A program made the translations under genes and the position numbers. From Candidatus Microgenomatus sp. (lineage in GTDB: Bacteria; Patescibacteriota; Microgenomatia; UBA8517): a DNA stretch of 64,000 bases. The DNA is taken from contig DYGS01000001.1 of NCBI GenBank assembly GCA_020724585.1, positions 674,535 through 738,534 of the forward strand. The letters run 5' to 3'. Positions 29,911 to 30,184 of the stretch are shown here, piece by piece. The notes beneath the pieces are model-generated. The model was not told where the DNA came from and searched no databases. It saw only the letters and a program-made list of their open reading frames with translations. Numbering within the stretch: the first letter of the stretch is position 1; each line of letters starts with the position of its first letter.

Positions 29911-30000
29911 TAGTACACAGGAATTAGTACAAAGTACAAAGAAAAACAATTTTTGTGTTTCTAAGTACTAAGTACTCTGTACTATGTACTATGTACTATG
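29911..30000. repeat. Family-B repeat insertion in 16S (helix-10-like variable region)
   Basis: 'tagtacacaggaattagtacaaagtacaaagaaaaacaatttttgtgtttctaagtactaagtactctgtactatgtactatgtactatg'. Confidence 0.7.
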
Positions 30001-30106
30001 TGCAAAGCACATATCTCATACGGTATTAACCCATCTTTCGATGAGGTATTCCATACCACTGGGTAGATTCCTATTTTATACTCAGCCGTTCGCAACTAGC
30101 TCGCAC

Positions 30107-30184
30107 ATTGCTCGCAGTACACAGGAATTAGTACAAAGTACAAAGAAAAACAATTTTTGTGTTTCTAAGTACTAAGTACTCTGT
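30107..30184. repeat. Family-B repeat insertion in 16S (helix-6-like variable region). Near-identical to the 29911 copy.
   Basis: The same ~75-nt sequence is present a second time within the 16S 5' domain. Confidence 0.7.

What the first reader, a model, noticed from the sequence alone, without database searches (positions are those of the whole stretch)
29911..30184. Near-identical ~75-90 nt GTACT-rich insertions in two different variable helices of the 16S 5' domain
'tacacaggaattagtacaaagtacaaagaaaaacaatttttgtgtttctaagtactaagtactctgtactatgtac' occurs twice, at 29911-30000 and 30107-30184. Each copy splits otherwise conserved 16S sequence. The units (TAGTAC/GTACTA) are self-complementary and should form hairpins. 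Related tracts flank the rRNA genes at 22741-22823 and 30398-30436. Others lie at 12351-12412 and, in frame, inside trxB. This points to a repeat family that targets rRNA expansion sites as well as intergenic DNA.
Basis: seen in the sequence. Interest (0 to 1): 0.65.

Follow-up and report, generated by a model that had tools for sequence, protein, structure and literature searches.

The report
Leader-derived hairpin inserted twice in 16S
A candidate-phyla-radiation bacterium carries two identical ~80-nt hairpins at the tips of two surface helices of its 16S rRNA; they are copies of a hairpin that related species keep in the transcribed leader of the same gene, which suggests how rRNA intervening or expansion sequences can arise.

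Summary
A 79-nt stretch is exactly repeated (29912-29990 = 30116-30194). Each copy caps a 111-120-nt insertion that replaces the apical loop of a 16S helix. The helices are h6 and h9, not h10.

Both insertions fold as long continuations of the host helix, and only on the rRNA sense strand. All 34 related 16S genes I recovered lack them, but those relatives are at most 90% identical.

The element is not a widely dispersed mobile repeat. Full-length relatives lie only in rRNA-operon spacers: the 16S leader of four related Woesebacteria, a decayed copy in this leader, and the tRNA-Ala/23S spacer.

The inserts are modular. A conserved pseudo-symmetric base (RUGC-NNN-GCAY) carries an apex built of 7-nt units. 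The 23S holds a second hairpin family at H25, H45 and a domain I hairpin. In a relative, the h6 tip carries an insert encoding a classical IVS protein.

Best reading: these are IVS-type helix-tip insertions made by local copying of a spacer hairpin. RNase III probably excises them, but retention as expansion segments is not excluded.

The trxB tract is a real in-frame +9-aa insertion, older and shared with relatives. I rate this a new variant of a known kind, of moderate interest.

The parts
27727..30280 (-). 16S rRNA gene, true extent. The 5' exon ends about 28722 and the 3' exon runs about 27847-27727.
   Evidence: Rfam SSU_rRNA_bacteria hit at 1183.7 bits. The forced 3' end and a direct read of CCGTCAAGG...GGATCACCTCCTTTCT show that the gene continues past an intron.
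30100..30210 (-). h6 insertion. 111 nt replace the roughly 12-nt apical hairpin seen in relatives.
   Evidence: Rfam alignment shows 94 nt versus 3 at the h6 tip. Relatives have 32-54 nt between CATGCAAGT and the signature, against 131 here. Fold -50.2 kcal/mol sense versus -34.0 antisense.
29895..30014 (-). h9 insertion. 120 nt replace a roughly 10-nt CCCGCAAGGG-type hairpin.
   Evidence: Rfam alignment shows 99 nt versus 3 at the tip of the helix at model 178-203. Relatives have 56-70 nt against 166 here. Fold -52.3 kcal/mol sense versus -41.4 antisense, with 6 G-U pairs.
30116..30194 (-). 79-nt exactly repeated core, h6 copy: the apical hairpin built of GUAC 7-nt units.
   Evidence: Model R1 scores 88.4 bits.
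29912..29990 (-). 79-nt exactly repeated core, h9 copy. This copy carries one extra 7-nt unit on its RNA 5' side (29991-29997).
   Evidence: Model R1 scores 90.8 bits.
30197..30207 (-). Basal module motif at the RNA 5' side of the h6 insert (GUGCGUUGCAC). The identical 11-mer sits at the base of a 23S domain I insert (22225).
   Evidence: Motif census: 7 of 8 RTGCNNNGCAY sites in the window lie inside rRNA inserts.
29899..30010 (-). Basal duplex of the h9 insert: GUGCUUUGCAC (30000-30010) paired with AUGCAGAGCAU (29899-29909).
   Evidence: The same paired module occurs only in the 23S insert 22349-22403 and in the 16S h9 insert of L028, within 1.9 Mb searched.
30396..30483 (-). Decayed copy of the hairpin in the 16S leader. 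Only the 3' arm UUGUUUUUCUGUGUACU... is kept.
   Evidence: R1 hit at 57.1 bits. Alignment A1. Positionally homologous to intact GTAC hairpins in the leaders of L009, L093, L101 and L109.
22742..22818 (-). Same-family hairpin starting about 4 nt after tRNA-Ala(TGC), in the spacer before the 23S.
   Evidence: R1 hit at 81.6 bits. Fold -35.7 kcal/mol, z -4.3. tRNA position. One GUAC/GUAC to GUGC/GCAC compensatory change.
37318..37352 (-). (AGTACNN)x5 array inside trxB. It encodes STKYKVLSTKYS, an in-frame +9-aa insertion in a variable loop.
   Evidence: Protein alignment with relatives. The DNA array is conserved in L007 and L009. L008 has AGTCAAA units at the same site.
12354..12407 (.). GTAC 7-nt array followed by a TATAGTA array, in the 73-nt spacer between the rho stop codon and the M23 peptidase start codon.
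   Evidence: It has no significant fold of its own (z -0.9).
27611..27657 (-). 16S trailer strand of the long leader/trailer processing stem. Its partner is in the leader at about 30324-30389.
   Evidence: Duplex energy -61.8 kcal/mol.
20873..20994 (-). 23S insert at the tip of helix 45 (Rfam model position 1218). It is an older member of a second hairpin family built of 8-nt units.
21659..21781 (-). 23S insert at the tip of helix 25 (Rfam model position 583). It is 91% identical to the copy at 22099-22220.
22099..22220 (-). 23S insert at a domain I hairpin (Rfam model position about 285), same family as the H25 copy.
22344..22403 (-). 23S insert at Rfam model position about 170. It shares the AUGCUUUGCAU/AUGCAGAGCAU basal duplex with the 16S h9 insert.
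   Evidence: (fold -42.2 kcal/mol, z -8.7).

Best explanation
The two repeats are helix-tip insertions of the intervening-sequence / expansion-segment kind in the single 16S gene of a Woesebacteria-like CPR bacterium.

Each insertion is modular. A pseudo-symmetric basal duplex (RUGC-NNN-GCAY paired with a G-U-rich partner) continues the host helix. On top of it sits an apical hairpin built of 7-nt units: a self-complementary GUAC core plus an A-U pair, separated by tandem U-U mismatches.

The apical hairpin is a copy of a hairpin family that belongs to the rRNA operon's transcribed spacers. Related species carry it in the pre-16S leader, and this genome also has one after tRNA-Ala, ahead of the 23S.

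Proposed history, which is inferred:
- The leader hairpin was copied a few hundred bases downstream into one helix tip.
- It was then copied, or gene-converted, into the other tip.
- The mechanism was probably replication template switching between neighbouring quasi-palindromes with similar bases.
- The 100% identity of the two copies indicates a recent event or ongoing homogenisation.

The tips of h6 and h9 are solvent-exposed, so the additions are tolerated.

Proposed fate, also inferred: the dimeric double-strand RNase III that processes the leader/trailer stem cuts the pseudo-symmetric base. That would remove the hairpins and leave a fragmented but functional 16S, as for classical IVSs.

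Shown here: the insertion sites, the structure, the strand asymmetry, absence in relatives, homology to spacer hairpins, the shared basal module, and the parallel 23S family at classical IVS sites.

Inferred only: the copying mechanism and the excision.
For: - **Sites and size.**
- **Copy identity.** 79 nt are exactly identical, including an asymmetric degenerate unit. This excludes independent growth by slippage.
- **Structure and strand.** Folds of -61.1 and -55.0 kcal/mol (z about -7) on the rRNA strand, against -38.3 and -41.8 on the other strand. The stems contain 4-6 G-U pairs plus U-U mismatches.
- **Relatives.** All 11 synteny-derived and 23 signature-derived 16S genes lack the element.
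- **Homology to spacer hairpins.** End-to-end similarity to the L009 leader hairpin scores 64, against a shuffle mean of 14.9 and maximum of 24. Similarity to L093, L101, L109 and the window's spacer hairpin is also above shuffles.
- **Distribution.** The covariance model finds members only in rRNA operons.
- **Basal motif.** 7 of 8 window occurrences lie in rRNA inserts. The paired module is shared by the 16S h9 insert, a 23S insert, and the h9 insert of a Blackburnbacteria relative.
- **Second family.** The 23S carries another hairpin family at H25, H45 and a domain I hairpin, and two of those copies are 91% identical.
- **IVS site in the clade.** The h6 tip of relative L018 holds an insert encoding 23S_rRNA_IVP (E 1e-27).
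- **Processing stem.** A long leader/trailer stem is present.
- **Literature.** Short ORF-less CPR rRNA inserts at H25/H45 are presumed RNase III IVSs (PMC11270868). Most CPR rRNA inserts were reported absent from transcripts (Brown 2015, as cited in PMC9297842). The Helicobacter fennelliae 16S IVS, inserted at nucleotide 175 (H. pylori numbering), shares a 26-bp homology with its 23S IVS (PMC3335488).
Against: - There are no RNA data, so excision versus retention is open.
- The regular 2x2 U-U internal loops might hinder RNase III.
- No rnc gene was seen, but only 10% of the genome was available.
- The nearest relatives are only 88-90% identical in 16S, so the age of the insertion is not constrained.
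- No relative with just one insertion was found, so the order of events is a guess.
- Independent assemblies of the same organism break at the 16S edges, so both junction pairs rest on a single JGI contig.
- The window's own leader copy is decayed, so the donor is inferred from relatives.
Confidence: 0.6

Rival explanations
1. The hairpins are retained expansion segments. They stay in the mature 16S as long extensions of h6 and h9 on the 30S body surface, perhaps bound by a lineage-specific protein. Origin by copying of the spacer hairpin is the same as in the best explanation.
For: - The inserts continue the host helices coaxially and are strongly sense-strand specific.
- h9 and h6 are expansion sites in other lineages (own knowledge).
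- The regular U-U mismatch pattern is preserved in both copies and across family members. This could mark a structure that is used rather than discarded.
Against: - The same genome has same-style inserts at the two classical excised-IVS sites of the 23S.
- A relative has an IVP-encoding IVS at the h6 tip.
- The element derives from spacer RNA, which is normally removed.
- CPR inserts were reported absent from transcripts (PMC9297842, citing Brown 2015).
Confidence: 0.3
2. The element is a selfish miniature mobile element of the MITE, REPIN or RPE type. It transposes around the genome and happens to be tolerated in rRNA helix tips, intergenic DNA and protein loops.
For: - Identical copies sit at two sites.
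- Arrays of the same 7-nt unit occur in trxB in frame and in a rho/M23 spacer.
- In relative L021 one 7-nt unit occurs both in its 16S h9 insert and in its trxB loop.
- A second family behaves the same way in the 23S.
Against: - All four full-length copies in the 64-kb window (two in the 16S, a decayed leader copy, one in the tRNA-Ala/23S spacer) lie in rRNA operons, as do all other hits in 655 kb searched.
- There are no target-site duplications at either junction.
- No transposase, RAYT or reverse transcriptase was found among the scanned ORFs.
- The leader copy is positionally conserved in four relatives, which is vertical inheritance.
- The trxB tract is a simple array shared by three species.
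- No hairpin-form match was found in viral contigs.
Confidence: 0.12
3. The double insertion is an assembly artefact. The 79-nt repeat caused a chimeric join, or two strain variants with one insertion each were merged.
For: Everything rests on a single metagenome contig. Short-read assemblies of the same organism break at the 16S. The source contig was not recovered in the metagenome scan.
Against: - Each copy has its own pair of flanks, and those flanks are complementary to each other and continue a different host helix.
- The copies differ by one 7-nt unit and have different basal modules.
- The rest of the 16S is collinear with the Rfam model.
- A strain merge would still leave the element in both helices within the population.
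Confidence: 0.05

Closest known systems
Bacterial rRNA intervening sequences (IVSs): 23S helix 25/45 in Salmonella, Campylobacter and Coxiella; 16S IVSs in Helicobacter, Campylobacter and Caedibacter
   Same: - They replace the apical loop of a variable surface helix.
- Their ends pair into a long stem.
- Their distribution among relatives is sporadic.
- A 16S/23S pair sharing a short homology is known in H. fennelliae (PMC3335488).
- The 23S of this genome has same-style inserts at the H25 and H45 tips.
   Different: - Here the same 79 nt sit in two helices of one 16S.
- The apex is built of 7-nt units.
- The element is homologous to the operon's own leader and spacer hairpin.
- A conserved basal motif is shared across sites.
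- Excision is not shown.
CPR rRNA 'insertion sequences' (Brown et al. 2015; Tsurumaki et al. 2024, PMC11270868)
   Same: - The host group is the same.
- The window also has the reported group II-like LAGLIDADG_1 intron at 16S position 1400, and LAGLIDADG introns in the 23S 3' region.
- That work lists a class of 'short, ORF-less, uncharacterized' inserts.
   Different: The survey did not analyse the internal repeat structure of the inserts, their duplication between helices, or their relation to spacer hairpins. The words 'repeat' and 'hairpin' do not occur in its text.
STRR heptanucleotide tandem repeats of heterocystous cyanobacteria, including STRRs inside the RNase P RNA gene (Vioque 1997; the title is cited in PMC2858038, the detail is from my own knowledge)
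   Same: - Tandem 7-nt units occur at several loci.
- They are found inside a variable helix of an essential structural RNA, lengthening it.
- Heptamer repeats are over-represented in bacteria generally (PMC4692102).
   Different: - The phylum and the RNA are different.
- Here the unit is arranged as a defined hairpin that is copied as an 80-nt block.
- It sits on a conserved basal module and belongs to a spacer-hairpin family.
Rickettsia palindromic elements, REPINs and MITEs
   Same: They are short palindromic repeats that can sit in frame in proteins and in RNA genes.
   Different: - There is no high copy number, no target-site duplication and no cognate transposase.
- Full-length members are confined to rRNA operons.
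- The trxB tract is only a unit array.
rRNA expansion segments (eukaryotes, Asgard archaea)
   Same: Helices grow from their tips at surface sites, including h9.
   Different: This is a bacterial case that is absent from all sampled relatives (88-90% or less 16S identity), with an identifiable donor sequence. Retention in the ribosome is untested.

Membership tests
Bacterial rRNA intervening sequence (IVS) | Inserted at the apex of a variable, surface-exposed helix, replacing the native loop | tested here: met
   Rfam alignment shows 94 nt versus 3 at the h6 tip and 99 nt versus 3 at the h9 tip. Comparison with 34 relatives agrees.
Bacterial rRNA intervening sequence (IVS) | The 5' and 3' ends pair into a long stem (about 20 bp or more) suitable for a double-strand RNase | tested here: met
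   41 and 46 predicted pairs. The h9 basal stem has 14 bp followed by 10 bp.
Bacterial rRNA intervening sequence (IVS) | Sporadic presence among related organisms | tested here: met
   Absent in all 34 relatives. Other lineages (L018, L021, L028) carry unrelated inserts at the same sites.
Bacterial rRNA intervening sequence (IVS) | Excised from the precursor without ligation, giving a fragmented mature rRNA | not testable with these tools
   No RNA data are available. Indirect support only: a leader/trailer processing stem, an IVP-encoding insert at h6 in L018, and 23S inserts at H25/H45.
CPR rRNA insertion sequences, short ORF-less class (PMC11270868) | An extra segment of about 100 nt or more relative to E. 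coli in a CPR rRNA gene, with no intron ribozyme and no ORF | tested here: met
   The inserts are 111 and 120 nt. Rfam reports no intron or other family there. Only spurious ORFs of 63 aa or fewer are present. The host is Woesebacteria-like.
STRR-like heptanucleotide repeats | Tandem arrays of a 7-nt unit at multiple loci in the genome | tested here: met
   TRF finds period-7 arrays at 12354, 22756, 29961, 30165 and 37318. GTAC runs at 7-nt spacing number 4 against 0 simulated.
STRR-like heptanucleotide repeats | Membership of the cyanobacterial STRR1-3 sequence families | tested here: not met
   The units are AGTACNN, not CCCCAGT, TTGGTCA or CAACAGT (own knowledge of the STRR units). The host is a CPR bacterium.
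MITE / REPIN / RPE mobile palindromic elements | Many dispersed copies across the genome | tested here: not met
   The covariance model finds full-length copies only in rRNA operons within 655 kb. Only 10% of the source genome could be searched.
MITE / REPIN / RPE mobile palindromic elements | Target-site duplication and/or a cognate transposase (RAYT, IS) | tested here: not met
   The junctions GCACGAA|GUAC...GUACU|GCGAGC and GCACAUA|GUAC...GUACU|ACAUGC carry no duplication. No transposase domain was found in about 45 window ORFs.
MITE / REPIN / RPE mobile palindromic elements | In-frame insertion into protein-coding genes (RPE hallmark) | tested here: inconclusive
   trxB holds a +9-aa in-frame array of the 7-nt unit. 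It is not the full element and is shared by L007 and L009.
Group I / group II introns | A ribozyme core detectable by covariance models | tested here: not met
   There is no Rfam intron hit in 29895-30210. The inserts are simple hairpins.

The most novel reading that the evidence does not exclude
CPR (Microgenomates) genomes may have a copy-and-paste process for structured RNA hairpin cassettes. Each cassette has a conserved pseudo-symmetric base and an apex of 7-8-nt units. The process would seed rRNA intervening or expansion sequences from the operon's own spacer processing hairpins, and the same genome-specific units would also colonise protein loops. That would give a concrete origin for bacterial IVSs and a mechanism for growth of rRNA helix tips.

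Support so far:
- Two independent near-identical pairs occur in this genome (16S h6/h9, and 23S H25/domain I).
- Periodic stems occur in every ORF-less h6/h9 insert seen in other lineages (L021, L028). A periodic unit array lies next to the junction of L018's insert, and periodic arrays lie in the 23S 5' region and leader of L037.
- Units are shared between the rRNA insert and the trxB loop in the window and in L021.
Probability: 0.25. Interest if true: 0.7.

Novelty: new variant of a known kind. Interest (0 to 1): 0.5.

Why it matters
Where bacterial rRNA intervening sequences come from, and how rRNA helices grow from their tips, are still open questions.

Here the donor can be named: a hairpin of the pre-16S leader or spacer family. 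The product can be seen twice in one gene, still 100% identical. A shared basal module looks like a processing site.

If RNA data show excision, this would be a worked example of spacer processing hairpins becoming IVSs. If the hairpins are retained, it would be a young bacterial expansion segment with a known source.

There is also a practical consequence. Such inserts lengthen the V1-V2 region by about 200 nt and will distort amplicon and probe-based surveys of these CPR lineages.

Tried and rejected
- **Independent assemblies.** Exact-protein look-ups of the neighbouring PIN gene and the intron LAGLIDADG gene found the organism in four Logan runs. Every contig breaks at the conserved 16S edges. 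Look-ups of a 63-aa spurious ORF spanning both copies, and of the 154-aa neighbour, found nothing.
- **Metagenome scan.** A clade-specific 16S signature returned 23 relatives but not the source contig. No relative carrying only one of the two inserts turned up.
- **Viral contigs.** The hairpin-form pattern gave 0 hits. Plain (GTACNNN)x5 arrays occur in 43 stretches, which shows only that heptamer repeats are widespread.
- **Period-7/8 tract density.** The window has about twice the mean of all fetched loci, which is not exceptional, so I dropped it as an argument.
- **8-nt-unit tracts in pth, DNA ligase and recF.** They resemble the 23S element arms, but the Pfam alignments show no extra length, so I do not count them as insertions.
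- **Bulge-helix-bulge or intron splicing.** Rejected because the folds are plain hairpins and there is no ribozyme hit.
- **Independent slippage growth of the two copies.** Rejected because both share the same asymmetric degenerate unit and the same loop.
- **Two older papers** (Vioque 1997; Elhai 2008) are not held in the library. I use them only from memory or from their titles.

Full report
**What is there**

The window comes from a 644-kb JGI metagenome contig (sample 3300029893). TrxB relatives and conserved gene order place the organism among Candidatus Woesebacteria / Microgenomates of the candidate phyla radiation.

The 16S gene lies on the minus strand.
- 29905-29990 and 30109-30194 are 97% identical over 86 nt.
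- The exactly identical run is 79 nt, 29912-29990 = 30116-30194.
- No match is expected by chance.

The Rfam alignment shows 94 nt where the consensus has 3 at the tip of h6. It shows 99 nt where the consensus has 3 at the tip of the helix at model positions 178-203. That second helix is followed by the AAAG linker and the short h10, so it is h9, not h10.

Measured against relatives, the inserts are larger than the repeat itself:
- 111 nt (30100-30210) replace a roughly 12-nt hairpin in h6.
- 120 nt (29895-30014) replace a roughly 10-nt CCCGCAAGGG-type hairpin in h9.

**Structure**

On the rRNA strand each insert folds into one long hairpin that continues the host helix. With flanks the energies are -61.1 and -55.0 kcal/mol, z about -7. 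The inserts alone give -50.2 and -52.3 kcal/mol.

The opposite strand folds much less well, at -38.3 and -41.8 kcal/mol. The sense stems use 4-6 G-U pairs and tandem U-U mismatches, so the structure is an RNA-level feature of the rRNA strand.

The apex is periodic. It consists of 7-nt units with a self-complementary GUAC core plus an A-U pair, separated by 2x2 U-U loops. Both copies share the same loop and the same degenerate unit (UUCC in place of GUAC) on the 3' arm. They therefore descend from one sequence and did not grow independently. The h9 copy has one extra unit.

**Relatives**

Because trxB lies about 7 kb upstream of the 16S in this clade, fetching trxB loci brought in eleven related 16S 5' domains. 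A clade-specific 16S signature brought in 23 more from metagenomes.

None has the element. Their h6 measures 32-54 nt between anchors, against 131 here. Their h9 interval measures 56-70 nt, against 166 here. The nearest relatives are only 88-90% identical in 16S, so the age of the insertion is not tightly bounded.

Other lineages carry different inserts at the same tips:
- L021 has an h9 hairpin built of AATTTCT units.
- L028 has an h6 hairpin (ATTTTCC units) and an h9 hairpin (GTCTACG units).
- L018 has a roughly 420-nt h6 insert with an (AGTTGNN) unit array next to its 3' junction. This insert encodes a 23S_rRNA_IVP protein (E 1e-27), the hallmark ORF of classical intervening sequences.

**Where the element comes from**

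The 16S leaders of this clade share conserved blocks. Between these blocks, just upstream of a CTTTAACA motif, sits a hypervariable long hairpin. That motif resembles the E. coli rrn boxA core; this resemblance is my own knowledge and I did not test it.

In L009, L093, L101 and L109 that hairpin is made of GTAC 7-nt units and aligns end to end with the window's 16S element. The shared sequence reads AGTACTTAGTAC-TAGAA...TTGTTTTTCT-TGTACT-TGTACT...TGTACTGC. The local alignment score against L009 is 64, with a shuffle mean of 14.9 and a maximum of 24.

These same relatives have no 16S insert wherever h6 and h9 are visible: L093 and L109 for both helices, L101 for h6 only. L009's contig ends 54 nt into the 16S, so its helices cannot be seen.

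The window's own leader keeps only a decayed copy (30396-30483). A well-formed family member lies about 4 nt after tRNA-Ala, ahead of the 23S (22742-22818).

A covariance model of the family finds nothing else in 655 kb of window plus relatives, apart from weak hits on the trxB arrays. The element is therefore a spacer hairpin of the rRNA operon that has been copied into the mature 16S. It is not a genome-wide dispersed repeat.

There are no target-site duplications. No transposase, RAYT or reverse transcriptase was found among about 45 window ORFs.

**Modularity and the 23S**

The motif RTGCNNNGCAY occurs eight times in the window. Seven of these lie at the bases of rRNA helix-tip inserts: 16S h6, both strands of 16S h9, and three 23S inserts.

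The paired form GUGCUUUGCAC...AUGCAGAGCAU is shared by the 16S h9 insert, a 23S insert (22349-22403) and the h9 insert of L028. It occurs nowhere else in 1.9 Mb. Each strand is itself quasi-palindromic, so the duplex is pseudo-twofold symmetric. That is the kind of site a dimeric double-strand RNase would use; this is an inference.

The 23S also carries a second hairpin family built of 8-nt units. It sits at the tips of helix 45 (Rfam model position 1218), helix 25 (583) and a domain I hairpin (about 285). The last two copies are 91% identical. Copying between helix tips has therefore happened at least twice in this genome, and two of the recipient sites are the classical RNase III IVS sites.

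The pre-16S leader and trailer form the usual long processing stem, with a duplex energy of -61.8 kcal/mol.

**The other tracts**

The trxB tract (37318-37352) encodes STKYKVLSTKYS. It is a true in-frame +9-aa insertion in a length-variable loop. The GTAC array there is conserved at the DNA level in L007 and L009. L008 has AGTCAAA units at the same place. L021 has TAATTTC units there, the same unit as in its own 16S h9 insert.

The trxB tract is therefore older than the 16S insertions. It is a unit array, not a copy of the element.

The rho/M23 spacer tract (12354-12407) is likewise a unit array, with no significant fold.

Heptamer repeats are known to be over-represented in bacteria, and polymerase slippage has been proposed as the cause (PMC4692102). 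Cyanobacterial STRR heptamers even occur inside the RNase P RNA gene (Vioque 1997; the title is cited in PMC2858038). GTAC heptamer arrays also occur in 43 viral contig stretches.

**Interpretation**

The best-supported reading is an IVS-type helix-tip insertion made by local copying of a spacer hairpin. The likely mechanism is template switching or gene conversion between neighbouring quasi-palindromes with similar bases.

The insertions are tolerated because the h6 and h9 tips are exposed. RNase III probably removes them at the conserved basal module. Retention as expansion segments is the main rival, and only RNA data can separate the two.

A dispersed mobile element is disfavoured by the distribution of copies and by the junctions.

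An assembly artefact is unlikely, because each copy has its own mutually complementary flanks, its own basal module and its own unit count. I could not confirm this independently, because short-read assemblies break at the 16S.

**Relation to what is known**

CPR rRNA genes are known to be rich in insertions, including a class of short, ORF-less, 'uncharacterized' ones. Those at 23S H25/H45 are presumed to be IVSs (PMC11270868). Most inserts were reported absent from transcripts (Brown 2015, via PMC9297842). H. fennelliae offers a precedent for a short homology shared between 16S and 23S IVSs (PMC3335488).

New here are the following:
- an exact duplicate in two helices of one 16S;
- an identifiable donor in the operon's own leader/spacer hairpin family;
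- the architecture built of 7-nt units;
- the conserved basal module.

I rate this a new variant of a known kind, of moderate interest.

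Noticed in passing
window 27848-28722 (ORF 27867-28361, minus strand): The 16S is interrupted after UGUACACACCGC (about E. coli position 1400) by a roughly 875-nt intron. It encodes a LAGLIDADG_1 endonuclease and has a weak group II domain-5-like hairpin (27881-27911, 19.7 bits, E 0.43). The 3' exon, with the anti-SD end, lies at 27727-27847. Rfam's reported 3' end at 28697 is forced. This matches site 16IS9 of PMC11270868.
   Followed up: partly
window 17561-19484: The 23S does not end at 19484. BLAST against a relative places further exons at about 18451-18543 and 17561-17724. 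They are separated by introns encoding LAGLIDADG_2 (18731-19351) and LAGLIDADG_1 (17857-18312).
   Followed up: partly
window 20873-20994, 21659-21781, 22099-22220: A second hairpin family, built of 8-nt units (AAAACUCA / UUUGAGUU), is inserted at the 23S helix 45 tip, the helix 25 tip and a domain I hairpin. The last two copies are 91% identical, with 36-nt exact blocks.
   Followed up: partly
window 21788, 22225, 22349, 22393, 29899, 30000, 30197: The motif RTGCNNNGCAY marks the base of almost every rRNA helix-tip insert (7 of 8 occurrences in 64 kb). The paired form is shared between a 16S insert, a 23S insert, and the 16S h9 insert of a Blackburnbacteria relative (L028 14148-14245).
   Followed up: yes
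window 17297-17325: The 5S rRNA has 29 nt where the model has 11. The extra sequence is a G+C-rich CCUGCGCAAGCAGG hairpin. The 5S score is barely above the gathering threshold (39.4 versus 38).
   Followed up: no
whole window: The tetranucleotide ACGT is almost absent (14 observed, about 209 expected from base composition). Other 4-nt palindromes are only mildly depleted. This could reflect restriction avoidance or a methylation-related bias.
   Followed up: no
window 22897-27726: The 16S and 23S are separated by about 5 kb. This region holds tRNA-Ile(GAT), tRNA-Ala(TGC), several small hypothetical ORFs and, on the opposite strand, a 708-aa TraG/VirD4-type coupling protein. The usual 16S-Ile-Ala-23S spacer seems to have been split by foreign DNA.
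   Followed up: no
L021 10764-10795 and 20154-20214: In a Microgenomates relative the same 7-nt unit (TAATTTC / AATTTCT) forms both the trxB loop insertion and the arms of its own 16S h9 insert. This parallels the GTAC unit in the window. Units look genome-specific but are shared between rRNA and protein inserts.
   Followed up: partly
L018 19060-19495: The h6 tip of this relative holds a roughly 420-nt insert encoding a 114-aa 23S_rRNA_IVP protein (PF05635, E 1e-27). An (AGTTGNN) unit array lies next to its 3' junction (19461-19493).
   Followed up: yes
window 59676-59745; also 60844-60875, 61263-61291, 61817-61851: A third family of 7-nt units (GCAUACA / UAUGCUG) occurs here. One copy forms an intergenic hairpin between fpg and a glycosyltransferase gene (-22.5 kcal/mol, z -3.6). 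The others sit at gene boundaries or inside the 5'-3' exonuclease gene.
   Followed up: partly
window 48881-48920, 52234-52290, 55354-55393: Tracts resembling the arms of the 23S 8-nt-unit element lie inside pth, an ATP-dependent DNA ligase and recF. One is a perfect 16-nt x 2.4 repeat. Pfam alignments show no extra length, so they may be coincidental or replaced segments.
   Followed up: partly
window 31893-31917 and 48626-48648; L021 9897-9995; L022 1549-1570: The 7-nt unit AGGCA(A/C)T / TAGTGCC recurs in three different genomes. In L021 it forms a hairpin just upstream of trxB.
   Followed up: no
L037 5493-5552, 5792-5817 and 6035-6118: Another CPR relative (trxB 54% identical) has 7-nt-unit arrays inside the 5' part of its 23S: (AACAGTT) at 5792-5817, and (GTAACAA) followed by (AAGTTAC) at 6035-6118. 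It also has such arrays just upstream of the 23S start. I did not fold these or map them to helices.
   Followed up: no
window 22661-22722: A 28-nt unit repeated 2.1 times lies in the 23S leader. Each unit is itself a small CCACAAGC...GCUUGUGG hairpin.
   Followed up: no
L103 and L106 (upstream of the 16S signature): Two relatives carry a large ORF-bearing insert in h6. The protein was not identified.
   Followed up: no
L113-L155 (IMG/VR contigs): Tandem (GTACNNN) arrays of 5 or more units occur in 43 stretches of viral contigs of very different G+C content. Some contigs carry several.
   Followed up: no
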